Positions 19,005 through 36,593 of a DNA stretch of 64,000 nt are shown here, one piece after another (the stretch's first letter is position 1; every line of letters begins with the position of its first letter). Made by a program: the position numbers and the translations under genes. Below the pieces are notes generated by a model. It did not search any database, had not been told where the DNA came from, and saw only the letters and a program-made list of their open reading frames with translations. Where the stretch lies: the NCBI GenBank assembly GCA_965219685.1, contig CBDCOH010000002.1, forward strand, positions 1,088,001-1,152,000, in the 5' to 3' direction. The DNA comes from Candidatus Spongiisociaceae bacterium (GTDB lineage: Bacteria; Actinomycetota; Acidimicrobiia; Spongiisociales; Spongiisociaceae).

Positions 19005-19328
19005 TCAGCGGCCCTGCCGTTCCATCACATAGCGTGTCACGCGCAGGATCTGTTCCTCGTTCAGGGTTCCCCGGAAGGACGGCATCCGGCCGATCCCGGC
19101 GGAGATCGACTGGACGAAGTAGCGCTCGGGCTTGTCGATGGAGCGGGCGTCCTCCCCCACCAGGGCGAGCCCGGTCCCGCCCTGCAGATCCTCGCCGTGA
19201 CAGCGGGCGCACACCTGCACGTAGATCTCCTGCCCGGTTGCGTCCTCGGGCACTCCCCCGCCGCCGCACGCATAGATCAGGAGCGTCATGGCGGCGACGA
19301 TCCCCACTCTCAGAACACGGACAATCAC
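19005..19328 (-). CDS. Monoheme cytochrome c lipoprotein
   Basis: Signal peptide ending LIYAC, heme motif CARCH, axial GRMPSF; GTGA overlap with the upstream gene. Confidence 0.85.
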   Translation of the reverse strand: MIVRVLRVGIVAAMTLLIYACGGGGVPEDATGQEIYVQVCARCHGEDLQGGTGLALVGEDARSIDKPERYFVQSISAGIGRMPSFRGTLNEEQILRVTRYVMERQGR

Positions 19329-19696
19329 GACGCCCTGTTGCCCCGGATCGAGTTGAGGTAGTTGTAGATCGTGATGCGGCTGACGCCCATCAGGTCGGCG
19401 ACCTCCTCTATGGACTTGCGCAGCCGGAAGGCTCCCCGCTCGTCCAGGAGGCGGACCGCCACCTGTTTCTGCACCCGTCCCAGGTCGGTCAGCTTGCCGC
19501 CCAACTCCGTCTCCACCTGGCCGACCATGCGATCGAGGACGTTGTGGAGGGACAGGATCCTTACTCCCGCCACCACCCGTCCCTCCCACTCCAGCGGGAC
19601 CGAGTTCCCGTCCATGCTGGTCGGCTCCACTATCTCCGCGCCCAGCGCGTCGGTCAGCGGCCGGATGGCCTCGATCAGCGGGTGCTCGCCACTCAT
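19325..19696 (-). CDS. HTH transcriptional regulator (HTH_22/YheO-DauR-like C-terminal domain)
   Basis: KQVAVRLLDERGAFRLRKSIEEVADLMGVSRITIYNYLN; ATG at 19696 overlaps the upstream stop. Confidence 0.85.
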   Translation of the reverse strand: MSGEHPLIEAIRPLTDALGAEIVEPTSMDGNSVPLEWEGRVVAGVRILSLHNVLDRMVGQVETELGGKLTDLGRVQKQVAVRLLDERGAFRLRKSIEEVADLMGVSRITIYNYLNSIRGNRAS

Positions 19697-19923
19697 GGTG
19701 TGACGGTCATGTTGACCGACACCCGGCTTGCGCCGGCGTCCATCGCCGCCCGGACGCAGTCGACGGCGGCGTGGAACACGATCTCGAGCGAGCCCTCTAT
19801 GGCGGTGCCGAACGGACCGATGTCCGGCCCGTAGGGCGAGAGGACGTCGATGGCTGCTTGGACATGGGGACCCGGGTTCCCCTCCTCGAACGGTTCTACG
19901 GTGAACTCGGCACGGGCCGGCAA
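19693..19923 (-). CDS. Small ferredoxin-fold protein, thiamine-binding/YkoF-like
   Basis: TTG start after GGAGAAGGA; AEFTVEPF..G.PGPHV, DIGPFGT, AMDAGASRVSV. Confidence 0.7.
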   Translation of the reverse strand: MPARAEFTVEPFEEGNPGPHVQAAIDVLSPYGPDIGPFGTAIEGSLEIVFHAAVDCVRAAMDAGASRVSVNMTVTP

Positions 19924-20000
19924 TCCTTCTCCTTGATCGCCCGGCAAGGGTATACGGATAGATGATTCTACCGAAGTAACGTTGCGCACTCCGCAGTTTT

Positions 20001-20098: not shown

Positions 20099-22681
20099 AT
20101 GACCCTGATCGCCCACAGGACGATAGGTTTCAGGCTCAACGGACGTGATGTCTCTGTTCGGGCCGACCACCCCCACCTGCTGTCAGCGCTCCGCGAGGAA
20201 CTCGACATCACCTCGGCCAAGGACGGCTGTGCTCCGTCAGGTCAGTGCGGATGCTGCACGGTCCTGGTCAACGGCCGGGCTTTCGTGGCCTGCGTCCTGG
20301 CCCTTGAGAAGGTGGCGGGCAAGGAGGTCGTCACCCTCGAAGGATTCGACCCGGTCGAACGTGACCGTCTGGCCTCCGCCTTCGCAGTCACCGGCGCACT
20401 CCAGTGCGGCTTCTGCACGCCGGGGATCCTCGTCAGGACCAAGGCGCTGATCGACCAGAAGGGTTCCCGGCTCAACAAGCGGGTCACAGCCGGGAGGTTG
20501 GGAGCGCACCTCTGCCGCTGCACCGGTTACACGAAGATCTTCGACGCGATCGACATGCTGGCCTCCGGCGAGATCCCGCCGCTGGAGACGTCGGGCGGGA
20601 TCGGCAAGTCGGGTATCAAGTACGAGGCGTTGGAGCTGGCCCTGGGAGACCGCGACTACATCGACGACATCCGCTTCGACGGCATACTCCACGGGGCATT
20701 GCGGCTCACCGACCACGCCCGAGCCGACGTGGTGAGGATCGACACCGGTCCGGCGGAGGCCATTCCGGGCGTGCATGCCGTGTTCACCGCGGCCGATGTG
20801 CCCGGGGAGTTGCGGGTGGGCCTCATCCACAAGGACTGGCCGGTGCTGATTCCGGAGGGTGGGCGTACCTCCTACTACGGGGACGTTCTGGCCATCGTCG
20901 TCGCCGACGACAGGCTGGCGGCCCGCGAGGCGGCCGCGGCCATCGAGATCGAGTACCGCGTGCTGAAGCCGTTCACCGATCCGGCCGAGGCGGTGGCCTC
21001 CTCGGAGGACGCGGTGTGGGGCCTGGAAGGAAACGTCCTGTCCGTTTCCAAGTACCGGCGGGGGGACTTCGAGTCCGCATACGAGGCGTCGCCCCACAAG
21101 CTGCATGAGACGTTCGTCACCCAGCGGGTCGAGCACGCCTTCCTGGAGCCCGAGTCGACGCTGGTGGTTCCGGCGGGGAATGGGCGGTTGATGCTCTACT
21201 CCGGTGGCCAGGGGGTATGGGACGACCGCGACCAGGTGGCCTCGGTGCTGGGAGTCGAACCCTCGCAGATCACCGTGGAGCTCATCTCGAACGGGGGCGC
21301 CTTCGGCGGCAAGGAGGACATGGCCAACCAGGCGCAGACGGCCCTCGCCGCCCACCTGCTCGGTCGCCCCGTCAAGTGCACACTGTCGAGGGAGGAGTCC
21401 CTCCGCATCCACTCCAAGCGCCACCCCATCCGCATCGAGCTGTGGGCGGGCTGCGACAGCGACGGCAAGTTCACCGCCCTCAAGGCCCGCATGCTGGGCG
21501 ACTCGGGTCCCTACGCCTCTGTGGGTATGAAGGTCCTCGAGCGGGCCGCGGGGCATGCCAGCGGTCCCTACGTGGTGCCCAACATCGACGTGAAGGCCGT
21601 TGCGGCCCGCACCAACAACCCGGTGTGCGGCGCGTTCCGGGGCTTCGGCGCCAACCAGGCCCAGTTCGCCATGGAGGGAGTGATAGACCGCCTTGCAGAG
21701 CAGGTCGGGATCTCGGGCTGGGAGATGCGGAGTCGCAACGTCATCGAACCCGGGGTCGTCTGGGGTCCGGGCCAGGTGATGGACGAAGGCTGCCGGGGCG
21801 CCCGCGAGTCGCTCAACGCGGTCAAGCCTCATTACGACGCGGCCCGGGCCGCGGGCAAGGCCGTAGGGGTCGGACTGGGTCTCAAGAACAGCGGTCTGGG
21901 GAACGGCTTCAAGGAGGTGGCGCGCGCGGTGGTCCGCTTCACACGGGACGGGGCCGTCGAGGTGCGGCACTGCTGGACCGAGATGGGTCAGGGCATCCAT
22001 ACCGTGGCCCAACAGGTGGCGGCCGAGGAGTTGGGCATCGATCCCAAGCGGATCAGGGTGATCGTCGACACCAGCCGCGAACTCGGGGCCGGGCAGACCA
22101 CCGGCTCCCGGGGCACGCTGATGGGGGCGGGAGCGGTACAGGCCGCCAGCCGCGCCGCTGACGCCGGCGGGAGACTTCCCGATGTCGACTACCACGGCGA
22201 ATACCGGATCGACTGGACCAACTCGCTCAAGGAGGGTCTGGCGAACCCGACGATCCACTCCGCCTTCGGCTATGCGTCCCAGCTGGTCATAGCCGACAAG
22301 GCGACCGGGAAGATCGAGCGGGTGGTGGCCGCCCACGACGTGGGCCGGGCCATGCACCCGGTGTTGTGCGAGGGCCAGATCGAAGGCTCGGTCCACATGG
22401 GCCTCGGCTATGCACTGACCGAGGACTTCCCGGCCGACGACCAAGCCCGCCCCACCAACATGACGCTGCGCAGCCTGGGGATCATCCGCCCCAAGGACAT
22501 GCCGTACGTGGACGTGATCCTGGTCGAGGTCCCCCAGCCTCGCGCCCCCTACGGCATCAAGGGGGTCGGTGAGATTGGGCTGGTCCCGACCGCCGGGGCG
22601 GTGGCGGCTGCACTGCACGAGGTGGACGGGCAATGGCGGAATCGCCTTCCCATGGGTGTCCACCAGCCGGTCACCAAGTGA
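20099..22681 (+). CDS. Xanthine dehydrogenase-family molybdo-hydroxylase with fused 2x[2Fe-2S] domain (selenium-dependent XDH-like architecture)
   Basis: KDGCAPSGQCGCC, QCGFCTPG, CRCTGY, HAFLEPE, GGAFGGKE, AFRGFG..Q, EMGQG, TTGSR, GQIEG, KGVGE; about 860 aa. Confidence 0.9.
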   Translation: MTLIAHRTIGFRLNGRDVSVRADHPHLLSALREELDITSAKDGCAPSGQCGCCTVLVNGRAFVACVLALEKVAGKEVVTLEGFDPVERDRLASAFAVTGALQCGFCTPGILVRTKALIDQKGSRLNKRVTAGRLGAHLCRCTGYTKIFDAIDMLASGEIPPLETSGGIGKSGIKYEALELALGDRDYIDDIRFDGILHGALRLTDHARADVVRIDTGPAEAIPGVHAVFTAADVPGELRVGLIHKDWPVLIPEGGRTSYYGDVLAIVVADDRLAAREAAAAIEIEYRVLKPFTDPAEAVASSEDAVWGLEGNVLSVSKYRRGDFESAYEASPHKLHETFVTQRVEHAFLEPESTLVVPAGNGRLMLYSGGQGVWDDRDQVASVLGVEPSQITVELISNGGAFGGKEDMANQAQTALAAHLLGRPVKCTLSREESLRIHSKRHPIRIELWAGCDSDGKFTALKARMLGDSGPYASVGMKVLERAAGHASGPYVVPNIDVKAVAARTNNPVCGAFRGFGANQAQFAMEGVIDRLAEQVGISGWEMRSRNVIEPGVVWGPGQVMDEGCRGARESLNAVKPHYDAARAAGKAVGVGLGLKNSGLGNGFKEVARAVVRFTRDGAVEVRHCWTEMGQGIHTVAQQVAAEELGIDPKRIRVIVDTSRELGAGQTTGSRGTLMGAGAVQAASRAADAGGRLPDVDYHGEYRIDWTNSLKEGLANPTIHSAFGYASQLVIADKATGKIERVVAAHDVGRAMHPVLCEGQIEGSVHMGLGYALTEDFPADDQARPTNMTLRSLGIIRPKDMPYVDVILVEVPQPRAPYGIKGVGEIGLVPTAGAVAAALHEVDGQWRNRLPMGVHQPVTK

Positions 22682-23697
22682 ACACCACAGCTGGTCTCGT
22701 CTGTGCCCATCATCACCTCTACTCCGCGCTGGCGCGCGGGATGCCCGCTCCCCCTCAGGTGCCCACCACATTCCAGGGCATCCTCGACCAGGTCTGGTGG
22801 CGGCTCGACACCGCCCTCGACCTCGAGATGATCCGCTGGTCGGCCATGCTGGGCGCCCTCGAGGCGCTCGAGTCGGGCACCACCGGGATCGTGGACCACC
22901 ACGAGTCACCCAACGCCATCGAAGGCAGCCTGTCGGTGATCGCCGACGCCTGCGCCGAGGTGGGCGTCCGGGTACGGCCTTGCTATGGCGTGACCGACCG
23001 GCACGGACCGGACGGGGCCCGCCGCGGTCTCGAGGAGAACCGCCGCTTCCTGTCGGAGGGCGGGGAGGGAATGGTGGGGATCCACGCTGCGTTCACATGC
23101 GAGCAGGGGACCCTCGAGGAAGCCGCGGCCCTCGCCGATGAACTCGACGCCGGCGTGCATGTCCATGTCGCCGAGGGACCGGAGGATGAGGCGGGACCCG
23201 AGCGACTCGACGGTCTCACGCGGGACGAGTGGCTGCTCGCCCACGGAGTTCACCTCGCCACGGACCACGGTCTGAGTGGGACCATTCTCCACAATCCGCG
23301 GTCCAACCTCAACAACTCGGTCGGGTACGCCGACCCGGCCCGCTTCTCCAACCGGATCGCGCTCGGAACCGACGGGATCGGCGCCAACATGATCGAGTCC
23401 TTCCGCCTCGCCTACGTGATGCACCGGTCGGTCGACGTGGCCGCTACCCCCGAGACTGCATGGAGTTGGATGGAGAACGGATGGGATCTGATCCCCGAAT
23501 GCCGTAACGACCTGGTCACGTGGAGCTACGACCCGATGGATCCCTGGCACGTGGCGTTCACGTCCGGGATCCGGCCCCTGGGGGTAGAGGTGGACGGTGA
23601 GGTGATGTTCAAAAACGGCTCACCCACCAGGGTGGACGCCGCCGAGGTTCGCGCCAAGGCGCGCGAGCAGGCGACCCGGCTGCATGCCAGGCTTTGA
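22678..23697 (+). CDS. ssnA: SsnA-like amidohydrolase
   Basis: CAHHHLYSALARGM, WWRLD.ALD, GTT...DHHESP, HAAFT, HVHVAEG, HNPRSN.NN.VGY, LGTDG; GTGA overlap with xdh. Confidence 0.8.
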   Translation: MNTTAGLVCAHHHLYSALARGMPAPPQVPTTFQGILDQVWWRLDTALDLEMIRWSAMLGALEALESGTTGIVDHHESPNAIEGSLSVIADACAEVGVRVRPCYGVTDRHGPDGARRGLEENRRFLSEGGEGMVGIHAAFTCEQGTLEEAAALADELDAGVHVHVAEGPEDEAGPERLDGLTRDEWLLAHGVHLATDHGLSGTILHNPRSNLNNSVGYADPARFSNRIALGTDGIGANMIESFRLAYVMHRSVDVAATPETAWSWMENGWDLIPECRNDLVTWSYDPMDPWHVAFTSGIRPLGVEVDGEVMFKNGSPTRVDAAEVRAKAREQATRLHARL

Positions 23698-23719
23698 CTA
23701 CGTGGTTTAGGAGGGTGCG

Positions 23720-25510
23720 ATGACAGCTCCGAATGGAGTCCACGAACCGCTCACGCCTTTCGGTCTCTCCGACCTGCTCGACCGGATCGCCTACGAATGG
23801 GACTCGCGTCGCCGCATCTTCGACCTGCCCATCGCCCGCTTCTTCAACGTGTCCGAGGGTCCCGACATCTCGATCGACTTCCTGGGACGACCCGCCGCCA
23901 CGCCGGTGGGGCCGGCTGCCGGACCGCACAGCCAGATGGCGCAGAACATCATCCTGTCGTGGCTCGGCGGGGGCCGGCTGATGGAACTCAAGACGGTGCA
24001 GATCCTCGACGAACTGGAGATCGGGCGACCCTGCATCGACATGGAGACCATCGGCTACAACATCGAGTGGAGCCAGGAACTGAAGATCCCCCAGTCGCTC
24101 GAGGAATATGTCAAGGCCTGGATGATGCTCGAGATCATGCGCAACTGGGAGGAACTCACCCCTTACATCGGCAGCGATCCGGGTCCGTGCATCTTCGACC
24201 TGTCGGTCGGGTACGACCTGGCGGGAATCTCGACCGACCAGGTGGCCTGGTTCATCGACTCGATGATGGACGCCACCGAGGAGATCGAGCGTCTCCGGCC
24301 CGAGATTGACGGGAAGTTCACCCGGTTCCGCGACCTGGAGTTCCCGTCCCGCATCGCCGACACCGTGACCCTGTCGACGTTCCACGGCTGCCCACCCGAT
24401 GAGATCGAGTCGATCACAAAGCACCTGATCACCCGCCACGGGCTGGACGTGATCGTGAAGCTCAACCCCACCCTGCTCGGGTTCGAGCGGGTCAAGGAGA
24501 TCGTGCAGCAGACCCTGGGGTACGAGTCCACGGTGCTGCGCCGAGCGGACTTCGACAACGACCTCCAGTTCGACAGAGGCCTCGAGTTGATCGGCGAACT
24601 GCAGCGCTTTGCCGAAGACCACGGGCGCCGGTTCGGTGTCAAGCTCACCAACACCCTGGTCGTCGAGAACACCAAGGGGTTCATGCCCGATGAGACCATG
24701 TACCTGTCGGGGCCGCCGCTGCATGTCGTGTCCACCACGCTCTTGGGCGAGTTGCACAAGGCCCTGCCGGGGAGGCTGCGGATCGACGGTCAGGACGGCC
24801 CGGTGCAGGTGTCGTTCTCGGCAGGTATCACCAAGGAGAACCTCCCGGATGCAGCCGCGCTCGGGCTGGCACCGTTGACGATCTGCTCGGACCTCCTGAA
24901 GCCGGGCGGGTACGGGCGCATCAAGCCGATGCTGAAGGCACTGCAGAAGGTGATGGTCGGTGCAGGTTCGGGATCCCTGTCCGATTGGCAGGCCCATCGG
25001 GGCGCGCTGTCGAACGGGAGAGGAGCGGTGGCCGCCTACATAGCCCGGCTCCACGACCCGGCCACCAACGGGCGCTACACCCTGGAGGGCAACTCGAAGC
25101 TGCCCAGGGCCGTGGACCACGACCTGCAGATGTGGGGATGCGTGGCATGCAACTTCTGCGTCACCGTCTGTCCCAACGACGCCTTCTTCCGGATACCCAC
25201 CCCGCCCGAACTCGACGCGGTGGGCCTGCAGCAGTACCTGGTGTTGGCCGAGTTGTGCAACGAGTGCGGCAACTGCATGGTGTTCTGCCCCGAAGCGGGC
25301 GACCCGGCCGTCATCAAGCCCCGGCTCTACATGACCGAGCACCGCTTCCAGCAGGAGACCGAGCAGGCATTCCTGGTCCACCAGGATCCGGACGGCTACT
25401 GGGTACAGCCCAACGCCGAGGGCGCCCAGTGGACCGGCGACCTGCTCCTCCTGCTGAACGGCGCCGAGGGCTTCGTGCTGCCCCCGTCCACAAAGCCGGT
25501 CAGGAAGTAG
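23720..25510 (+). CDS. ygfK: YgfK-like oxidoreductase, short form (N-terminal barrel plus C-terminal 2x[4Fe-4S]; no FAD/NAD(P)H module)
   Basis: PVGPAAGPHSQMAQNI...ELKTVQILDEL, YNIEWSQEL, TLSTFHGCPPDEIE, KLNPTLLG, GVKLTNT, MYLSG, CSDLLKPGGYGR, then directly CVACNFCVTVCP and CNECGNCMVFCP. Confidence 0.8.
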   Translation: MTAPNGVHEPLTPFGLSDLLDRIAYEWDSRRRIFDLPIARFFNVSEGPDISIDFLGRPAATPVGPAAGPHSQMAQNIILSWLGGGRLMELKTVQILDELEIGRPCIDMETIGYNIEWSQELKIPQSLEEYVKAWMMLEIMRNWEELTPYIGSDPGPCIFDLSVGYDLAGISTDQVAWFIDSMMDATEEIERLRPEIDGKFTRFRDLEFPSRIADTVTLSTFHGCPPDEIESITKHLITRHGLDVIVKLNPTLLGFERVKEIVQQTLGYESTVLRRADFDNDLQFDRGLELIGELQRFAEDHGRRFGVKLTNTLVVENTKGFMPDETMYLSGPPLHVVSTTLLGELHKALPGRLRIDGQDGPVQVSFSAGITKENLPDAAALGLAPLTICSDLLKPGGYGRIKPMLKALQKVMVGAGSGSLSDWQAHRGALSNGRGAVAAYIARLHDPATNGRYTLEGNSKLPRAVDHDLQMWGCVACNFCVTVCPNDAFFRIPTPPELDAVGLQQYLVLAELCNECGNCMVFCPEAGDPAVIKPRLYMTEHRFQQETEQAFLVHQDPDGYWVQPNAEGAQWTGDLLLLLNGAEGFVLPPSTKPVRK

Positions 25511-25548: not shown

Positions 25549-26001
25549 ATGAGCCACACGATGGAGGATGTACGCCGCTTCGTCGGCGCTGACCACGGCC
25601 TGTCGGTGGTCTCTTTCGGGCGTCCTGACCAGTCCGTCCATTCCACCGTTGTCAACGCAGGTGTGATGGACCACCCGGTGACCTGCGAGGAAGTGGTGGC
25701 CCTGGTGGTGAGGGGTAACACCGTCAAGCTCCGCCACTGGCGCCACACGCCGCGGGCCGGCATCGTCTTCCGGTCCGGTTGGTTCTGGGCGGGCGTAGAG
25801 GGAACTACCAGCATCATCGGCCCGGATGATCCGTTCGAAGGGTTCGAGCCGTCAGCAGTGCCGCAGTTGCTCCGCGACGTGTTCACGGCCGCCGGGGGGA
25901 CCCACGAGGACTGGGACGAGTACGACCGCGTCATGGCGGCCGAGCGCCGGGCCGCGGTCTTCATCCACCCGACCCGCATCACCGGAGTCGGCCGACCCTG
26001 A
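25549..26001 (+). CDS. Pyridoxamine-5'-phosphate-oxidase-like (PPOX class, probably F420-dependent) oxidoreductase
   Basis: STVVNAGV..HP, K.R..R..P, W..VEG, LLRDVFTAAGGTHEDWDEYDRVMAAERR. Confidence 0.8.
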   Translation: MSHTMEDVRRFVGADHGLSVVSFGRPDQSVHSTVVNAGVMDHPVTCEEVVALVVRGNTVKLRHWRHTPRAGIVFRSGWFWAGVEGTTSIIGPDDPFEGFEPSAVPQLLRDVFTAAGGTHEDWDEYDRVMAAERRAAVFIHPTRITGVGRP

Positions 26002-27028: not shown

Positions 27029-27895
27029 TCAGACTTCGAGAGTGAGGGCAAGCTCTGCCCGCGCCTCCTCGGTGGTCGGCAACAGCGGGGCTCGGGCGCG
27101 TCCGGCGCGCAGTCCTGCCATCTCCGCAGCCGCCTTGACGCCCGGGATCCCGTGGCGCGCCACCCCGTCATTCGCGGCCGTCAGGCGATGCTGCATCCCC
27201 ATGTCGCCCGGAGGATTCTCCAGCGCGGCTGCCACCACCTCCAGGCTCAGCCGGGGCACGTAGTTGACGGCTGCCAGGATGGCGCCATGGGCTCCCGCGG
27301 CAAGGCTGAGGGTCACCGCCGGGGCCGCTCCGTTGTAGAGGGCGAAGTCGTCCGGTAGCCCGGCCAGCATCCGCTGGACGCGGATGGTGTCTCCACTCGA
27401 GTCCTTCATCCCCACCACGTTCGGGTGTTGGGCCAGTTCCCACACCGTCTCGAGCGGCATGGAGTAGGCGGTCACTATCGGCACTGAATAGAGGAAGACC
27501 TGAAGCGGCGACTCATCCGCGACCTCCCGGAAGAAGGCAGTCACGAAGTTGGTGCGGTTGCGGGAGAGGGTGGTGGGGGTCAGCACGAGTACTGCGTCGG
27601 CACCGCCCTCGGCCGCTTCCGCGATCTGGCTTGCAGCGATCCGGTTTGTCTCTGCATTGATCCCGCACAGTAGGAAGGCGTCATCGCCCCCAGCCTCTCG
27701 TGAGGCCGCAGCCAGCCGCCGGCGTTCTCCCGGCTCTAACAGGGGACCCTCACCGGTGGAACCGGCCAGCACGAATCCCTCGTATCCCAGTTCGCCCAGG
27801 AAGGCCACGTTGTGGCGGTGGGCATTGAGATCGAGGTCCTGGCGGTCGTCGAAGGGTGTGATGATGGCGGGCATAGCCCTTGGGAATGGCTTCAT
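27029..27895 (-). CDS. Dihydrodipicolinate synthase (DapA/NAL) family aldolase
   Basis: ITPF, GSTGE, LYSVP, Schiff-base motif GMKDSSG. Confidence 0.88.
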   Translation of the reverse strand: MKPFPRAMPAIITPFDDRQDLDLNAHRHNVAFLGELGYEGFVLAGSTGEGPLLEPGERRRLAAASREAGGDDAFLLCGINAETNRIAASQIAEAAEGGADAVLVLTPTTLSRNRTNFVTAFFREVADESPLQVFLYSVPIVTAYSMPLETVWELAQHPNVVGMKDSSGDTIRVQRMLAGLPDDFALYNGAAPAVTLSLAAGAHGAILAAVNYVPRLSLEVVAAALENPPGDMGMQHRLTAANDGVARHGIPGVKAAAEMAGLRAGRARAPLLPTTEEARAELALTLEV

Positions 27896-31094: not shown

Positions 31095-32555
31095 TCATCC
31101 GAGTCCGGTGAGGCTGTTGAACTCCTCTATGAGTCGGTCGATGGGGTCGGCCAAGGTCTGGATGCTGGTCCAGTAGTCGTCGTCGTACCACTGGGCCTGG
31201 ATCTCCTCGTATGTCTTGCCCTGTTGCTCCACCCAGGTGTAGTACTTGAGGTTGTGGATGCGCTTGCGGTCGTAGTAGCCGAGTTCGTGGACGTGTTCGG
31301 TGGAGGCCCCCAGCAGGTGGCGGTGGTAGGCGGCCACCGCGTCGTGGGTGGTGAACGTGCCGCGGTCCTCGCTGAGTTCGTGGAGCCGGCTCCGGTACAT
31401 GTCCATCGAGTCGGTGGCGATGGTGACCACTATGTCCCGGCTGGTCATCTCGTAGTACTTGGCGAGTTTGACGGCGGACAGCAGGTTGGCGGCGCCGGAG
31501 ATGCCGAGCAGGGGAAGGCTTCCTAGGACATCGGGATCTACTCCTTGCGATGCCAGGTACTCCCGGCCTGGCGCCTCGTTGAACAGCCGGGTGAGGGACA
31601 TGGCGGCCTCGTCGTCGAGCCCGATGGCGAGGTCGGTGTTCTTGACGTTGTGGACCCAGGGGATGTGCTTGTCGCCGATTCCCTCGATGCGGTGCTCCCC
31701 GAAGCCGTTCAGCAGCATGGTGGGACACTGGATGGCCTCACCCCCGGCGATCACCGAGCCGGGGAATCGCTGCTTCAGGTAGTCGCCGGCGGCGATGGTT
31801 CCGGCCGAGCCGGTGGTGACCGCGAACCCCCGGAACCGGTCGCGCTCGCCCATCACGTCGTCCAACACCTCCTCGACGGCGGGGCCGGTGACCGACACGT
31901 GCCACAGGTAGTTTCCGAACTCGTCGAACTGGTTGAAGATCATCAGGTCCTCGCCGGAGGCGGCCAACTCGTTGCACTTGTCGAAGATCTCCTTGACGTT
32001 CGACTCCGAACCGGGAGTCTTGATGATCTCCCCGGCCACCGTCTGCAACCACTCGAAGCGCTCGCGGCTCATCCCCTCCGGGAGGATCGCCACCGACTCG
32101 CAGCCCAGCAGGTTGGAGTCGTAGGCGCCGCCGCGGCAGTAGTTCCCCGTGGAAGGCCACACCGCCTTCTGGGTTGACGGGTCGAACTGTCCGGTGACCA
32201 GGCGGGGAACCAGGCAGCCGAAAGCCGCTCCCACCTTGTGGGCGCCGGTCGGGAACCACTTGCCGATCAGGGAGATGATCCGGGCCTCGACACCGGTCAG
32301 TTCGGACGGCCACTCGACGTAGTTGACTGGTCCGAACCCGCCCCCTTGGGCGACCGGTTCGTTGTGCCAGGTGATCCGGTACAGGTTGAGGGGGTGGAGA
32401 TCCCACAGACCGATGCCCGCGAGGCCTGACCGGACCTCGGATGGGATCAGGTTCGGGTCCCGCATCTGGGCGAGGGTCGGGATGCGCACCCGGCGCTCCC
32501 TGGTGTGGGCCGCCACCGACTCGAGGGCGGCCGCGTCAACGGTCAGATCGATCAT
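31095..32555 (-). CDS. Fold-type II PLP-dependent enzyme (cysteine synthase/beta-subunit-like, function unknown)
   Basis: GKWFPTGAHKVGA (PLP Lys), WPSTGNYCRGG, GSAGT, HRIEGIGDKHIPW, GISG.AN. Confidence 0.85.
   Translation of the reverse strand: MIDLTVDAAALESVAAHTRERRVRIPTLAQMRDPNLIPSEVRSGLAGIGLWDLHPLNLYRITWHNEPVAQGGGFGPVNYVEWPSELTGVEARIISLIGKWFPTGAHKVGAAFGCLVPRLVTGQFDPSTQKAVWPSTGNYCRGGAYDSNLLGCESVAILPEGMSRERFEWLQTVAGEIIKTPGSESNVKEIFDKCNELAASGEDLMIFNQFDEFGNYLWHVSVTGPAVEEVLDDVMGERDRFRGFAVTTGSAGTIAAGDYLKQRFPGSVIAGGEAIQCPTMLLNGFGEHRIEGIGDKHIPWVHNVKNTDLAIGLDDEAAMSLTRLFNEAPGREYLASQGVDPDVLGSLPLLGISGAANLLSAVKLAKYYEMTSRDIVVTIATDSMDMYRSRLHELSEDRGTFTTHDAVAAYHRHLLGASTEHVHELGYYDRKRIHNLKYYTWVEQQGKTYEEIQAQWYDDDYWTSIQTLADPIDRLIEEFNSLTGLG
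32542..32555. repeat. 14-bp direct repeat, copy 1 (GTCAGATCGATCAT; first 14 nt of the PLP gene)
   Basis: Identical to 33398-33411. Confidence 0.85.
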
Positions 32556-33397: not shown

Positions 33398-33411
33398 GTC
33401 AGATCGATCAT
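33398..33411. repeat. 14-bp direct repeat, copy 2; begins a dead MIDLT... start overlapping the thrC-like stop
   Basis: Identical to 32542-32555; the ATG overlaps the TGA of the upstream gene (ATGA). Confidence 0.85.
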
Positions 33412-34715
33412 GTCTGCTTCCTTAGCTTCCGGATCCACTGTTCCATTCTGGTGGCTATCTCGTCGGGGTCCAGCCCGTCCGGACCCGGACGGACCGGCAG
33501 GGGTACCGCGCCTGTCCTGTCGATCCCGCGCATCACCCCGCGGATGTCCTTCAGACCAGATCCGGTGGAGATGACCACCACCCGGTCGAGGGTCCCCTCC
33601 CCCCGCGGGTCTCCCTGCGATCCGTCCGCCACTTCGGCCAGCCCGGCGAAGGCGGCCGCCGCGGCCGGTTCGGGAAAGATGCCGGAGTCGGCCGACACAG
33701 TCGGGATCATCTCCAGGATGGCCTCGTCATCGACCGTCACCCATGCACCCCCGGTCTCGACTACCGCGGCCATCGCCTTGACTCGATCGCGGGGCAGGTC
33801 GGCGCTGATGGAGTCGGCGGCGGTGTCGGCGGCGACGGGCTGTTTGGTGACCACATCCTCCTCCTCCAGCCAGGCCTCGGCCAGATAGGAGCTGCCTTCG
33901 GCCTGCACTCCGTAGATGCGGGGCATGCGGTCGATCCATCCCAGTTTCAAGGCGTCCTTGAAGCCCTTGTGCACCCCTCCGATGATCGACCCGTCGCCCA
34001 CGCTTACGAACACCGCGTCCGGCGCCTCCCAGCCCAGTTGCTCGGCGATCTCCAGGGCCACGGTCTTCTTGCCTTCTCCCACGTAGGGATTGATCCCGGT
34101 GTTCCGGTTGTACCAACCGAAGCGTGCCACCGTTTCCTGGCATAACCGGAAGGCGTCGTCGTAGGTGCCCTCCACGAGCATCACGAACGCCCCGAAGGCG
34201 AGGAGTTGGGCGACCTTCGCCTCCGGTGCGGTGTCGGGGACGAAGATCACCGCGGTCTGGCCGGTTCCTGCCGCGAGACCGGCCAGGGCGGCGGCGGCGT
34301 TTCCCGTGGACGCGGTGGTGACCGTCTCGGCCCCTTCCTGGGCAGCTCTGGCCAGTGCGACCGCCGAGGCCCGGTCCTTGAGGGAAGCGGTCGGCTGGCG
34401 CCCCTCGTCCTTGATCCAGAGTCGCCCTACGCCCCAGCGCCGGGCCAGTCTCTCCGCCTCGACGAGCGGGGTCCCGCCCACTCCGAGAGCGGAGACAACC
34501 GTGGAGGACCCGACAGGAAGCAGGGGGCGGTAGCGCCACATGGACCGGTCCGGGTCTGCCGCCAGGCTCTCGCGTGTCAGCGTTTCGTTGATGGCGGCGT
34601 AGTCGTAGCGGGCGTCGAGGGTGCCCGCATCGCCGCAGCGGTCGCATACGTAGCGGCCCGGAGAGGGTTGGTACGACGCGGCGCAGACGGTGCATCGCAG
34701 CCCGGTCAGGTACAT
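33408..34715 (-). CDS. Threonine synthase-like fold-II PLP enzyme with N-terminal Zn ribbon
   Basis: CTVC/CDRC, SMWRY..LLP, GGTPL, PTASLKDR, ASTGNA, EGKKT, VGDG, EPAAA, TGSGLKD. Confidence 0.85.
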   Translation of the reverse strand: MYLTGLRCTVCAASYQPSPGRYVCDRCGDAGTLDARYDYAAINETLTRESLAADPDRSMWRYRPLLPVGSSTVVSALGVGGTPLVEAERLARRWGVGRLWIKDEGRQPTASLKDRASAVALARAAQEGAETVTTASTGNAAAALAGLAAGTGQTAVIFVPDTAPEAKVAQLLAFGAFVMLVEGTYDDAFRLCQETVARFGWYNRNTGINPYVGEGKKTVALEIAEQLGWEAPDAVFVSVGDGSIIGGVHKGFKDALKLGWIDRMPRIYGVQAEGSSYLAEAWLEEEDVVTKQPVAADTAADSISADLPRDRVKAMAAVVETGGAWVTVDDEAILEMIPTVSADSGIFPEPAAAAAFAGLAEVADGSQGDPRGEGTLDRVVVISTGSGLKDIRGVMRGIDRTGAVPLPVRPGPDGLDPDEIATRMEQWIRKLRKQT

Positions 34716-34718
34716 CCG

Positions 34719-35657
34719 CTAGGCAGGTGGTACGGCGCCACGCCGCTCGGTGATCAGCCCGTAGTGCTCGTGCATCCGGTAGTAGTCGAAGTCGAACAAT
34801 GTCTGCTTGTAGGTGTCGCAGAAGTCGAGGTCGATGGTGGTCGAGATCACCTCGTCCTCGGTGGTGACCGCTTGGGCGATGATCTGCCCGGACGGGGCGA
34901 TGATGACGCTCTGGGCGAGGCTGTCCACCCCCTCCTCGATTCCCCCCTTGGCGACCCCGACCACGAAGGCGCCGTTCTGGTAGGCGCCGGCCTGCATCAC
35001 GAGGTGGTTGTGGAATCCGGACAGCGCGTTCTGGGTGGGGTCGGGCGCGTAGTGGAGCGGGGTGTTGTAACCGATCAGGATCAGCTCGGCTCCCTGCAGG
35101 CCGAGCACCCGGTAGGTCTCCGGCCAGCGGCGGTCGTTGCAGATCGCCATCCCTACGATCCCGCCGAAGGCGTTCCAGGCTCCGAACCCGTCCGGCCCCG
35201 GCTCGAAGTAGTGCCGCTCGGCGTGCTGGAACTCCCGCCACGGCTCGTATTGGGCGTGGCCGGGTATGTGTATCTTGCGGAACTTGGATACCACGGTCCC
35301 GTCGCGTTCCACCAGTATGTAGGTGTTGTAACGATGCTCGACGCCCTGGTCGTCGGTGGCGATCTCCGCGTACCCGAGCGCGAACCCGATCCCAAGGCGG
35401 CGCGCCTCGTCGAACAGCGGCTTGGTGTCGCGGTCGGGCATCTCCCGGTGGTAGTAGTGCTCGAACTCGGCGGGGTCCGCGACGAACCATCGCGGGAAGA
35501 AGGTCGTCATGGCCAGCTCCGGGTAAACCAGCAGGTCGACCCCTTGGTCGTGTGCATCGTGCAGCATCGTCATCAGGCGGTCCACCACTTCGCTCTTCGA
35601 CTCTTCCCGGGCGATGGGGCCCATCTGGCCCGCGCCGACGGTGATCCGTCTCGACAT
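34719..35657 (-). CDS. N-carbamoyl-D-amino-acid amidohydrolase (nitrilase superfamily)
   Basis: QMGPI, PELAMTTFFPRW, RKIHIPGH, ICNDRRWPE, GYNTP, QAGAYQN. Confidence 0.9.
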   Translation of the reverse strand: MSRRITVGAGQMGPIAREESKSEVVDRLMTMLHDAHDQGVDLLVYPELAMTTFFPRWFVADPAEFEHYYHREMPDRDTKPLFDEARRLGIGFALGYAEIATDDQGVEHRYNTYILVERDGTVVSKFRKIHIPGHAQYEPWREFQHAERHYFEPGPDGFGAWNAFGGIVGMAICNDRRWPETYRVLGLQGAELILIGYNTPLHYAPDPTQNALSGFHNHLVMQAGAYQNGAFVVGVAKGGIEEGVDSLAQSVIIAPSGQIIAQAVTTEDEVISTTIDLDFCDTYKQTLFDFDYYRMHEHYGLITERRGAVPPA

Positions 35658-35703: not shown

Positions 35704-35750
35704 CTGCGGTGCGGTCCCGAGGGTGGCCGTGTCGAGGCAAGGAGGTCAGG

Positions 35751-36593
35751 ATGGCGAATGTGGTGCGGGCGGCGCTGGTCCAGAGCGAGTGGACGGGCGA
35801 CAAGGAGTCCATGATCGAGAAGAACATCGGGTACGCCCGCGAGGCCGCCGCGCAGGGGGCGCAGATCCTGTGCTTCCAGGAGATCTTCAACACCCCGTAC
35901 TTCTGCACGCACCAGGAGAACGAGCACTTCGCAACCGCCGAACCCATCCCCGAGGGTCCCACCGTCTCCAGGATGATCGAGTTGTCTCGCGAGACCGGAA
36001 TGGTGCTGATCGTCCCGATCTTCGAGGTGGAGGACACCGGCCACTACTACAACGCCGCGGCGGTCATCGACGGCGACGGCACCTACCTCGGCAAGTACCG
36101 CAAGACCCACATTCCCCAGGTGGCCGGCTTCTGGGAGAAGTTCTACTTCCGGCCCGGCAATCTCGGCTATCCGGTCTTCGACACCACCGTGGGCCGCATC
36201 GGCATCTATATCTGCTACGACCGCCACTTTCCCGAGGGCTGGCGGGAGCTGGGTCTGGCCGGCGCAAAAATCGTCTTCAACCCCTCCGCCACCACCCGGG
36301 GCCACTCCAAGTATCTGTGGGAGTTGGAACAACCGGCCGCCGCGGTGGCCAACGAGTACTTCGTGGGCGCCATCAACCGGGTCGGAAGCGAGAACCTGGA
36401 GGGTACCGACTACTACGGCAGTTCCTACTTCGCCTCGCCCCGGGGGCAGATCATCGGGGGTACCGCCTCGGACACCGCCGACGAGGTGGTGGTGAGGGAT
36501 CTTGACCTCGACCTGATCGAGGAGGTTCGCCACCATTGGGCTTTCTACCGGGATCGCCGCCCCGAGATCTACGACCGGATCGCGACTCCCTGA
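35751..36593 (+). CDS. Nitrilase-family hydrolase, beta-ureidopropionase-like
   Basis: RBS AAGGAGG; FQEIFNTPYFC, GKYRKTHIP, FWEKFYFRPG, ICYDRHFPEG, FNPSAT, FYRDRRPE. Confidence 0.9.
   Translation: MANVVRAALVQSEWTGDKESMIEKNIGYAREAAAQGAQILCFQEIFNTPYFCTHQENEHFATAEPIPEGPTVSRMIELSRETGMVLIVPIFEVEDTGHYYNAAAVIDGDGTYLGKYRKTHIPQVAGFWEKFYFRPGNLGYPVFDTTVGRIGIYICYDRHFPEGWRELGLAGAKIVFNPSATTRGHSKYLWELEQPAAAVANEYFVGAINRVGSENLEGTDYYGSSYFASPRGQIIGGTASDTADEVVVRDLDLDLIEEVRHHWAFYRDRRPEIYDRIATP

What the first reader, a model, noticed from the sequence alone, without database searches (positions are those of the whole stretch)
23720..25510. Short YgfK lacking the whole NAD(P)H/FAD diaphorase module
Seen: 596 aa. 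The YgfK N-terminal barrel motifs run directly into two CxxCxxCxxxCP ferredoxin motifs, with no GltD-like FAD/NAD(P)H region. The ORF is intact, with a good RBS. Known: E. coli YgfK is about 1000 aa and contains that module. Inference: this form takes electrons from another donor (ferredoxin, the neighbouring Mo enzyme, or an F420-linked partner), implying a different redox logic such as coupling purine oxidation to ring reduction.
Basis: partly seen in the sequence, partly recalled or inferred. Interest (0 to 1): 0.75.

Follow-up and report, generated by a model that had tools for sequence, protein, structure and literature searches.

The report
Purine reductase lacking its NADPH module
This is a real and widespread short form of the bacterial uric-acid-breakdown enzyme YgfK that keeps its catalytic barrel and two iron-sulfur clusters but lacks the part that takes electrons from NADPH, so it most likely runs on ferredoxin and is probably not the 'selenate reductase' that databases call it.

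Summary
Confirmed. The 596-aa ORF is a YgfK barrel (residues 9-412) joined by a ~60-residue linker to one 2[4Fe-4S] domain. About 447 residues of E. coli YgfK are missing: the Fer4_20 cluster domain and the FAD/NAD(P)H domain. It is no assembly error: 116 of the 120 nearest homologues and 76 of 80 GTDB loci (14 phylum labels) are short. No GltD/PreT-like gene lies in any of these 76 loci or in the window. Neighbours (FAD-less Se-type Mo hydroxylase 43/76, SsnA 42/76) and conserved barrel residues point to 2,8-dioxopurine reduction in reductive urate breakdown. Best model (inferred, 0.6): a soluble ferredoxin- or flavodoxin-type carrier feeds both this enzyme and the Mo enzyme. This has precedent in PydAc (shown) and C. 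difficile UacX (proposed), which belong to the PydA lineage. The F420 idea has no support (0/76). The Mo neighbour more likely consumes electrons than donates them. An unlinked diaphorase is not excluded. The module was lost more than once, often at the same cysteine junction. Six paper searches found no description of the short YgfK. Verdict: new variant of a known kind, interest 0.55.

The parts
23720..25510 (+). Short YgfK (596 aa): FMN barrel + linker + 2[4Fe-4S] domain + beta-rich tail; no Fer4_20 or FAD/NAD(P)H module
23709..23714 (+). Ribosome-binding site AGGAGG, 5 nt before the ATG
23744..24955 (+). Residues 9-412: dihydroorotate/dihydropyrimidine-dehydrogenase-type barrel; includes the S-T-F-H-G-C-P-P loop (candidate catalytic acid C224 or H222, inferred)
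   Evidence: (Z 27.7, rmsd 2.6, 290 aligned with pig DPD 529-933)
24956..25138 (+). Residues 413-473: helical linker, homologous to the barrel-to-Fer4_20 linker of long YgfK; ends at the junction cysteine C474
25139..25291 (+). Residues 474-524: 2[4Fe-4S] ferredoxin domain, two CxxCxxCxxxCP motifs; homologous to the C-terminal ferredoxin of long YgfK
20099..22681 (+). Se-type Mo hydroxylase with fused 2x[2Fe-2S] domain and no FAD domain (DOPDH/XdhAC-like, 860 aa); first gene of the operon
   Evidence: TIGR03311 808.9 bits, cut-off 830.45; best PDB match is the 907-aa aldehyde oxidoreductase 1sij/1vlb; homologue in 43 of 76 short loci
22678..23697 (+). SsnA amidohydrolase (339 aa from the GTG that overlaps the Mo-enzyme stop); lacks the first ~50 residues of E. 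coli SsnA
   Evidence: SsnA in 42 of 76 short loci
34719..35657 (-). N-carbamoyl-D-amino-acid amidohydrolase (D-carbamoylase); likely replaces YgeW/UacY (inferred)
   Evidence: E 3e-113 to solved D-carbamoylases; in 16 of 27 near-clade loci at 62-78% identity and 0 of 49 others
35709..36593 (+). Nitrilase-family ureidohydrolase (beta-ureidopropionase / N-carbamoylputrescine amidase-like); candidate for the second ureido cleavage (inferred)
   Evidence: in 6 of 76 loci
33408..34715 (-). Threonine-synthase-like PLP enzyme recurring in short-YgfK clusters
   Evidence: 15 of 76 loci at >=100 bits, 18 at >=60 bits
31095..32555 (-). Uncharacterised ~486-aa fold-type-II PLP enzyme; candidate substitute for the diaminopropionate ammonia-lyase YgeX (inferred)
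   Evidence: PALP; only distant cysteine-synthase structures; 26 of 76 loci at >=36% identity, two weaker hits dropped
19325..19935 (-). Divergent pair: thiamine-binding-protein-like gene and HTH_22 regulator; probable regulator of the operon (inferred)
   Evidence: HTH_22 homologue in 9 of 27 near-clade loci

Best explanation
The protein is an NAD(P)H-independent 2,8-dioxopurine (yanthine) reductase, the second step of reductive urate breakdown. A soluble low-potential one-electron carrier (ferredoxin or flavodoxin, probably reduced by 2-oxoacid:ferredoxin oxidoreductases) passes electrons to the 2[4Fe-4S] domain, which relays them to FMN in the barrel. Reduced FMN dearomatises 2,8-dioxopurine, and SsnA next door pulls the reaction by opening the ring. 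The FAD-less Mo enzyme upstream makes 2,8-dioxopurine from urate and probably draws on the same carrier pool. Shown: architecture, fold, spread, gene context, no linked diaphorase. Inferred: FMN binding, substrate, direction, and the identity and source of the carrier.
For: Architecture and spread. Fold: confident model (pLDDT 94.4); best matches are pig DPD and dihydroorotate dehydrogenases; colinear with E. coli PreA from barrel end through both Cys motifs (91% probability). Same chemistry as long YgfK: 58 barrel columns with an E. coli residue, mostly identical, are >=90% conserved in both 56 short and 54 long rows, including K91, T92, N114, E116, S219, T220, H222, G223, C224, K247, N311, T312, S330, G331 (66 columns listed, 8 gap columns dropped). 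Context: SsnA or the Se-type Mo enzyme in 49 of 76 short loci, both in 36, some pathway gene in 61. No Fer4_20/GltD-like ORF in 76 of 76 short loci (59 of them >=10 kb) or the window; the three weak Rossmann hits are a carotenoid isomerase-like protein, an HI0933 flavoprotein and GpsA. By contrast, 2781 of 3419 bacterial PydA have the module in an adjacent ORF (PMC7332683). [quoted passage not shown] Carrier supply: in UBA5794 Acidimicrobiia 53% of genomes have ygfK, about 85% have 2-oxoglutarate:ferredoxin oxidoreductase and none has 2-oxoglutarate dehydrogenase (PMC12008989); whether this window belongs to that order is not established.
Against: No ferredoxin or flavodoxin gene recurs next to the short gene. 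By a cysteine-motif screen only L065 has a ferredoxin and PFOR, and L039 an RnfC-like gene; flavodoxins were not screened. The carrier is therefore unidentified. Whole genomes were not available, so an unlinked diaphorase cannot be excluded. 15 of 76 short loci carry an XdhB/YgfM-type FAD subunit gene. HyuA is in only 11 of 76 loci (1 of 27 in the near clade) and absent from the window by that screen, so the lower pathway is incomplete within the DNA seen. 15 of 76 loci show no pathway gene at all, several being short contigs. No biochemistry exists for any short YgfK in the papers read; for UacX I saw the viologen assay method but no result.
Confidence: 0.6

Rival explanations
1. A separate, unlinked flavoprotein subunit (PreT/GltD/NfnB-like, or an XdhB-type FAD subunit) docks on the ferredoxin domain and supplies NAD(P)H electrons, as PreT does for PreA.
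For: The short protein has the PreA layout. 15 of 76 short loci have an XdhB/YgfM-type FAD gene, in L073 and L077 directly upstream of the Se-type Mo gene and ygfK. Whole genomes were not checked.
Against: 0 of 76 loci and the window have a Fer4_20/GltD-like gene, whereas split PydA has it adjacent in 2781 of 3419 cases. The FAD genes mostly come with their own 2Fe-2S and Mo subunits, i.e. a second, conventional xanthine dehydrogenase. A search for stand-alone copies of the middle module returned only generic GltD/NuoF/Hdr-type proteins at 39-45% identity (best 120 listed, of 8000 candidates scored), which is weak evidence.
Confidence: 0.15
2. The neighbouring FAD-less Mo enzyme is wired directly to the short YgfK, which takes the place of the missing FAD subunit, so electrons from purine oxidation at Mo flow to ring reduction at FMN.
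For: The two genes co-occur in 43 of 76 loci, often within one or two genes, and both lack an NAD(P)H entry. The Mo enzymes carry N at the place where I would expect the DOPDH valine (motif KNxGxGNG in all 42 motif matches; the position mapping is recalled), so their substrate range may differ.
Against: The characterised FAD-less relative reduces urate to 2,8-dioxopurine, so it needs electrons itself, and in C. sporogenes it occurs in a pathway that also includes ygfK. The window enzyme has T at the position aligned with the alanine of R. capsulatus XdhB that I take to be A1078 (numbering recalled), the DOPDH-type change. Oxidising 2,8-dioxopurine back to urate to reduce another molecule gives no net flux from urate.
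Confidence: 0.1
3. It is a ferredoxin-dependent dihydropyrimidine dehydrogenase (uracil/thymine), a YgfK-lineage equivalent of PydAc.
For: Fold and layout of DPD domains IV-V and PreA. A beta-ureidopropionase-like nitrilase is in the window; hydantoinase/carbamoylase-family amidases in 12 and HyuA in 11 of 76 loci.
Against: SsnA (42/76) and the Se-type Mo enzyme (43/76) are the commonest neighbours and have no role in the Pyd pathway; 8-oxoguanine deaminase-like genes, YgeW, YgeY and YgeX also recur. The barrel is 39% identical to E. coli YgfK but about 16-19% to DPD/PreA.
Confidence: 0.07
4. An F420-linked partner, such as the PPOX-class gene right downstream, supplies the electrons.
For: The next gene (25549-26001, same strand, 38 nt gap) matches TIGR03618 at 62.4 bits, below the cut-off of 79.05. 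Chloroflexota clusters are reported to use a putative F420 enzyme in place of YgfK (PMC12507026).
Against: Homologue in 0 of 76 short loci. F420H2 is a hydride donor and cannot reduce Fe-S clusters without a flavin (established knowledge, recalled). The short form occurs in many phyla, including Myxococcota, Calditrichota and Elusimicrobiota.
Confidence: 0.04
5. It is a selenate reductase subunit, as its database name says.
For: Names only: JGI 'putative selenate reductase' on many homologues; TIGR03315 title.
Against: Selenate was neither required for nor enhanced E. coli YgfK activity, and YgfK is a 2,8-dioxopurine reductase (PMC12507026). The fold is a flavin ring-reductase barrel and the context is purine catabolism.
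Confidence: 0.02
6. Artefact: a deletion, misassembly or pseudogene of this genome.
For: None found.
Against: 116 of 120 nearest homologues short; 60 of 150 representatives at 50% identity short; 76 of 80 GTDB loci short; all eight cysteines conserved; even GC3 along the ORF.
Confidence: 0.01

Closest known systems
E. coli YgfK / DOPOR (NADPH:2,8-dioxopurine oxidoreductase; TIGR03315)
   Same: Barrel 39% identical; active-site loop and about 58 barrel positions conserved; same C-terminal 2[4Fe-4S] domain; encoded next to SsnA.
   Different: Lacks E. coli residues ~456-902 (Fer4_20 plus FAD/NAD(P)H); two clusters rather than a predicted four; cannot bind NADPH itself; in the near clade the lower pathway uses a D-carbamoylase rather than YgeW/YgeY (16 vs 0 of 27 loci).
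Clostridial PydAc (ferredoxin-dependent dihydropyrimidine dehydrogenase, PMC7332683)
   Same: FMN barrel plus bacterial ferredoxin domain, no FAD/NADPH domain, no linked Pyr_redox_2 gene. This is the mechanistic model.
   Different: PydA lineage, uracil substrate, Pyd gene cluster, two ferredoxin domains (one may be a separate ORF), mostly Clostridiales. The short YgfK is YgfK lineage, has one ferredoxin domain and purine context, and spans many environmental phyla.
C. difficile UacX (PMC12507026)
   Same: Same step of the same pathway; FAD-less; paired with a Mo enzyme without FAD subunit; ferredoxin proposed as donor.
   Different: UacX is a PydA homologue (PF01180) that replaces YgfK; the present protein is YgfK itself without the module, i.e. 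a convergent solution. UacX could not be aligned directly (sequence not available through the tools).
E. coli PreA / PydA2, and pig DPD domains IV-V
   Same: Colinear barrel end, linker and two Cys motifs; structural Z 27.7.
   Different: PreA has preT adjacent and uses NADH; no preT-like gene lies near any short ygfK.
C. sporogenes DOPDH (XdhAC) for the upstream gene
   Same: Se-type Mo hydroxylase with fused 2Fe-2S domain, no FAD domain, T at the A1078-like position.
   Different: Just under the TIGR03311 cut-off; N where V is expected at the F1009-like position (mapping recalled, not aligned); selenium use untested; no selD/yqeB/yqeC identified in the window (yqeB/yqeC screened; selD not screened).

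Membership tests
YgfK/DOPOR (TIGR03315) | N-terminal YgfK-type FMN barrel with conserved active-site loop | tested here: met
YgfK/DOPOR (TIGR03315) | Fer4_20 cluster domain after the barrel | tested here: not met
YgfK/DOPOR (TIGR03315) | Pyr_redox_2 FAD/NAD(P)H domain | tested here: not met
YgfK/DOPOR (TIGR03315) | C-terminal 2[4Fe-4S] domain | tested here: met
YgfK/DOPOR (TIGR03315) | Whole-protein score above the equivalog cut-off | tested here: not met
   431.7 vs 835.3
YgfK/DOPOR (TIGR03315) | Encoded with SsnA and a Mo hydroxylase | tested here: met
   window; both in 36 of 76 short loci
YgfK/DOPOR (TIGR03315) | Reduces 2,8-dioxopurine | not testable with these tools
   needs an assay
PydAc / UacX (FAD-less PydA homologues) | DHODH/DPD-type barrel fold plus ferredoxin domain, no FAD domain | tested here: met
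PydAc / UacX (FAD-less PydA homologues) | Sequence membership of the PydA/DHO_dh family (PF01180) | tested here: not met
   PF01180 is in none of the precomputed domain lists of the 120 nearest homologues; the barrel matches the YgfK model instead; only 5 of 10 Pfam rows were shown for the query itself
PydAc / UacX (FAD-less PydA homologues) | Second ferredoxin domain, fused or in a separate ORF | tested here: not met
   one domain only; separate ferredoxin gene in 1 of 76 loci by motif screen
PydAc / UacX (FAD-less PydA homologues) | Activity with reduced viologen or ferredoxin, none with NAD(P)H | not testable with these tools
   needs an assay
PreA / PydA2 (split NAD(P)H-dependent DPD) | Barrel + linker + 2[4Fe-4S] in one ORF | tested here: met
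PreA / PydA2 (split NAD(P)H-dependent DPD) | Adjacent PreT/PydA1 gene | tested here: not met
   0 of 76 loci and the window
PreA / PydA2 (split NAD(P)H-dependent DPD) | A PreT-like partner encoded elsewhere in the genome | not testable with these tools
   only flanks of up to 10 kb and the 64-kb window were available
DOPDH (upstream gene) | Fused 2Fe-2S + Mo domains, no FAD domain | tested here: met
DOPDH (upstream gene) | Active-site changes A1078T/S and F1009V | tested here: inconclusive
   T at the A1078-like place; the F1009 region did not align and appears to be N; numbering transfer recalled
DOPDH (upstream gene) | Selenium dependence; urate to 2,8-dioxopurine activity | not testable with these tools
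   needs an assay

The most novel reading that the evidence does not exclude
Outside the gut, reductive urate breakdown commonly runs with no NAD(P)H entry at all: the short YgfK and the FAD-less Mo enzyme form one electron wire (Mo, 2x[2Fe-2S], 2x[4Fe-4S], FMN) fed by ferredoxin or by oxidation of other purines. In Acidimicrobiia it is followed by an all-hydrolytic lower branch (D-carbamoylase, a second ureidohydrolase and a new PLP lyase family replacing YgeW, YgeY and YgeX). The short, PreA-like form could even be the ancestral YgfK, with the diaphorase inserted later.
Probability: 0.12. Interest if true: 0.8.

Novelty: new variant of a known kind. Interest (0 to 1): 0.55.

Why it matters
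(1) The electron donor of the FAD-less Mo enzyme and the stereochemistry of the pathway are listed as open questions in a 2025 commentary (PMC12990295). Clusters in which both reductases lack FAD are a direct test system for the donor, and a true D-carbamoylase in these clusters argues for D (R) intermediates. (2) It extends a pathway known from gut bacteria to Acidimicrobiia, Myxococcota, Acidobacteriota, Planctomycetota, Gemmatimonadota and others. (3) ygfK is used as a selenium-cycling marker in environmental metagenomics (PMC8857189) and was read as selenate respiration in 53% of UBA5794 genomes (PMC12008989); such hits more likely mark purine catabolism. (4) Screens that define YgfK by Pyr_redox_2 or the TIGR03315 cut-off miss this form. 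(5) It is a clear case of repeated loss of a diaphorase module at one cysteine junction, paralleling PydA/PydAc. The FAD-less design itself is not new, which caps the surprise.

Tried and rejected
Complex prediction of the short YgfK with the 2Fe-2S domain of the upstream Mo enzyme (paired 37-row alignments) gave no verdict, score 0.00; it is not used for or against binding. Sequence search of solved structures gave only ferredoxin-motif and weak DHODH hits. Plasmid search: 7 records, none covering 80% of the query. Search for a stand-alone YgfK-type diaphorase: only generic GltD-like proteins. Motif screen for small ferredoxins: one real hit (L065) besides XdhC subunits. A first IQ-TREE run did not finish; FastTree and a smaller IQ-TREE were used instead. 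Rooting with PreA/DHODH was not attempted because identity is about 16-19%, so gain versus loss for the main clade is unresolved. The promoter/terminator scan was at chance level. The apparent exclusion between YgeX and the 486-aa PLP enzyme (0 shared loci of 5 and 28) is not significant (p 0.09). The supplement of PMC12507026, which may hold a UacX viologen result and the YgfK model, could not be read; bioRxiv supplements were closed. Rejected: artefact, selenate reductase, F420 partner.
Full report
1. The observation. The ORF at 23720-25510 (+) encodes 596 aa without interruption, with AGGAGG 5 nt upstream. The YgfK model TIGR03315 matches residues 11-412 to model positions 4-396 of 1012, at 431.7 bits against a cut-off of 835.3. 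Against E. coli K-12 YgfK (locus) two blocks align, 11-409 with 5-406 and 474-553 with 898-978, both 39% identical. The E. coli segment between them holds Fer4_20 (453-532) and Pyr_redox_2 (552-839). Profiles for those modules built from long homologues do not hit the window protein. The missing part is about E. coli 456-902.

2. It is a family, not an accident. Of the 120 best homologues listed (from 7987 candidates scored; 63-96% identity), 116 are short and 4 are fragments; those with a taxon name are Acidimicrobiia, Actinomycetota or 'bacterium'. Of the best 150 representatives at 50% identity (1776 hits in all), 60 are short, 53 full-length, 13 intermediate (Fer4_20 kept, FAD/NAD(P)H domain partly or wholly gone) and 24 fragments. 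These lists are ranked by likeness to the query and so favour short forms; they do not give true frequencies. Of these 76, 74 show the barrel-ferredoxin join (L072 across frameshifts) and 2 are cut by the contig end and classed by ~60% identity. Their titles carry 14 phylum labels; nearly all are MAGs, and a few labels may be misbinned. The Atlas lists short clusters dominated by Actinomycetota, Myxococcota and Bacillota.

3. Anatomy. The AlphaFold2 model is confident (pLDDT 94.4, pTM 0.94). Foldseek ranks pig dihydropyrimidine dehydrogenase and dihydroorotate dehydrogenases first. VIA-align gives Z 27.7, rmsd 2.6 over 290 residues with DPD 529-933, tied with class 1 DHODH. The profile of 52 short proteins aligns colinearly with E. 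coli PreA from the barrel end through both cysteine motifs (329-526 with 229-391, probability 91%). So the protein is DPD domains IV plus V. Between 56 main-clade short rows and 54 long rows, 58 barrel columns are at least 90% conserved in both (66 listed, 8 gap columns dropped), among them K91, T92, N114, E116, the S219-T-x-H-G-C224-P loop, K247, N311, T312, S330 and G331. That these match the FMN and ring-binding residues of DPD is recalled, not from a call, except for the S330-G331, G369 and T387 regions seen. C224 or H222 as catalytic acid is inference.

4. How the short form arises. The short linker ends in the same R-Y...K...L..(D)C pattern that leads into Fer4_20 in long proteins. The R-C-L-x-C motif before the C-terminal ferredoxin is present in 50 of 54 long, 13 of 13 intermediate and 0 of 61 short rows. 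So the first cysteine of Fer4_20 is spliced onto the C-terminal ferredoxin. A barrel-only FastTree of 134 rows puts the query in a 62-row all-short group (support 86) and five other short rows inside the long clade. Three of the five clearly use the same F-D-C junction, and all five keep long-type R487. A 45-row IQ-TREE rejects one clade for all short forms (p-AU 4e-6; the groups were named after the first tree had been seen). Two long proteins (P0148, L070) sit on the short side of the deepest split (support 100). Loss is therefore the likelier origin of the main clade as well, but the tree is unrooted and an ancestral short form is not excluded.

5. Context. In the window the gene is third in an operon: a Se-type Mo hydroxylase with fused 2Fe-2S domain and no FAD domain (TIGR03311 808.9 vs 830.45; best structure the 907-aa aldehyde oxidoreductase), then SsnA, then short ygfK. 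Six to eleven kb downstream lie a 486-aa PLP enzyme, a threonine-synthase-like enzyme, a true D-carbamoylase (E 3e-113) and a beta-ureidopropionase-like nitrilase. Across the 76 short loci (best-hit screen; refined): Se-type Mo enzyme 43, SsnA 42, either 49, both 36, the 486-aa PLP enzyme 26 (28 before dropping two weak hits), YgeW 18, YgeY 17, D-carbamoylase 16, threonine-synthase-like 15-18, hydantoinase/carbamoylase-family amidase 12, HyuA 11, YgeX 5, 8-oxoguanine-deaminase-like 6, PPOX-F420 0; 15 loci show none. In the 27 nearest loci D-carbamoylase is in 16 and YgeW and YgeY in 0; in the other 49 the numbers are 0, 18 and 17. This split follows lineage, so it is one observation, not many. 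This is the gene set of the 2,8-dioxopurine pathway described for E. coli and C. sporogenes.

6. Is the module supplied by another gene? Searching all six-frame ORFs of 55 aa or more in every locus and the window with the Fer4_20 and FAD/NAD profiles found them only in the long proteins and E. coli YgfT; three hits covering about 10% of the profile are unrelated Rossmann proteins. In split PydA enzymes the module is adjacent in 2781 of 3419 cases (PMC7332683), so 0 of 76 (59 loci of 10 kb or more) is informative. Against this: 15 of 76 loci have an XdhB/YgfM-type FAD gene, mostly with a second Mo enzyme and its own 2Fe-2S subunit, and unlinked genes could not be examined. No small carrier gene recurs either; only L065 has PFOR and a ferredoxin, and L039 an RnfC-like gene.

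7. Mechanism. From the literature: YgfK reduces 2,8-dioxopurine. One group needed SsnA coupling to see product and suggested unfavourable thermodynamics (PMC12507026); the other saw conversion by YgfK with NADPH (bioRxiv 2025.04.24.650524). DOPDH makes the substrate from urate, lacks FAD, did not use NAD(P)H and has no known donor. PydAc lacks FAD and works with reduced viologen or ferredoxin. UacX is FAD-less and proposed to use ferredoxin. Inferred for this protein: carrier to [4Fe-4S] pair to FMN to substrate, pulled by SsnA, with the Mo enzyme drawing on the same pool; confidence 0.6. In one Acidimicrobiia order, ygfK is in 53% of genomes, 2-oxoglutarate:ferredoxin oxidoreductase in about 85% and 2-oxoglutarate dehydrogenase in none (PMC12008989), so reduced ferredoxin is plausible in this class. 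I did not establish that the window belongs to that order, nor that those ygfK genes are short. Rivals: hidden flavoprotein subunit 0.15, direct wire from the Mo enzyme 0.10, pyrimidine substrate 0.07, F420 0.04, selenate 0.02, artefact 0.01.

8. Known or new. It fails membership of YgfK as defined (two domains and the score), of PydAc/UacX (sequence family, second ferredoxin) and of PreA (no adjacent preT), but it probably works like YgfK at the substrate end and like PydAc at the electron end. Six library searches returned no paper whose listing, or whose text where I read it, describes a YgfK lacking the module. The SsnA network paper names three reductase types (YgfK, UacX, F420-dependent) and includes Actinomycetota without noting a short YgfK in the text I read. 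Its supplement could not be read, and most subscription journals are not in the library.

9. Papers seen. bioRxiv 10.1101/2025.05.19.654654: parts 1-3 of 5 of the text. PMC12507026: passages and section 7. bioRxiv 10.1101/2025.04.24.650524: passages. PMC7332683: parts 1-3 of 4. PMC12990295: part 1 of 2. PMC12008989: passages. PMC8857189 and PMC2276186: one passage each. All others: search listing only.

10. Verdict. A real, widespread, apparently undescribed architecture of a recently characterised enzyme, with a good precedent for how it works. New variant of a known kind; interest 0.55. The value lies in a testable route to the open electron-donor question, a variant lower pathway, and a correction to the selenate-reductase reading.

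Noticed in passing
window 31095-32555 (-) and 33408-34715 (-); 26 and 15-18 of 76 short loci: An uncharacterised ~486-aa PLP enzyme family and a threonine-synthase-like enzyme recur in these clusters; the 486-aa family never shared a locus with YgeX (0 of 5; p 0.09). Candidate alternative diaminopropionate lyase or racemase step; large Atlas clusters, no close structure.
   Followed up: partly
window 34719-35657 (-); 16 of 27 near-clade loci: A true D-carbamoylase stands where other phyla have YgeW/YgeY, which suggests D-configured ureido intermediates and a hydrolytic branch without ATP gain.
   Followed up: partly
window 22678-23697; L002-L006, L011, L014, L016, L017, L024, L027, L033: SsnA of this clade is about 340-360 aa and starts at the metal-binding motif, lacking the first ~50 residues of E. 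coli SsnA; the start overlaps the Mo-enzyme stop.
   Followed up: partly
P0180, P0202, P0203, P0208, P0218, P0231, P0232, P0241, P0253, P0254, P0256, P0268, P0270: An intermediate class (818-1055 aa) keeps Fer4_20 but has only pieces of the FAD/NAD(P)H domain, some keeping both FAD-binding halves while missing the middle; it suggests staged loss, several times.
   Followed up: partly
P0161 (1046 aa): A short YgfK fused to a C-terminal DHDPS/aldolase-family domain; the window also has a DHDPS-family gene at 27029-27895 (-), 1.5 kb from ygfK.
   Followed up: no
window 62116-63978 (-), cut at the window edge: A second Mo hydroxylase large subunit, 52% identical to the three-subunit enzyme in cluster L055; may be the xanthine dehydrogenase that feeds urate.
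   Followed up: partly
window 19325-19935 (-): Thiamine-binding-protein-like gene coupled to an HTH_22 regulator, divergent from the operon; the HTH recurs in 9 of 27 near-clade loci.
   Followed up: partly
L065:9887-20847: Short ygfK cluster with pyruvate:ferredoxin oxidoreductase and a YfhL-type ferredoxin within 9 kb, the only such case among 76; a natural donor pair to test.
   Followed up: no
L003, L008, L009, L011, L017, L021, L024: BMP-family (nucleoside-type) ABC transporter genes next to the cluster; 8-oxoguanine-deaminase-like genes in L007, L008 and L012.
   Followed up: no
L062:9980-12073: Rhodoplanes sp. SY1, not labelled as a MAG, carries an orphan short ygfK with no pathway neighbours within 10 kb.
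   Followed up: no
L072:1-11463: A complete Acidimicrobiales cluster with several frameshifts (ygfK, Mo enzyme, SsnA, PLP enzyme), probably sequencing errors.
   Followed up: no
L053 and L054: Near-identical gene order and lengths under different phylum labels (Burkholderiales and Candidatus Xenobia); probably a binning issue.
   Followed up: no
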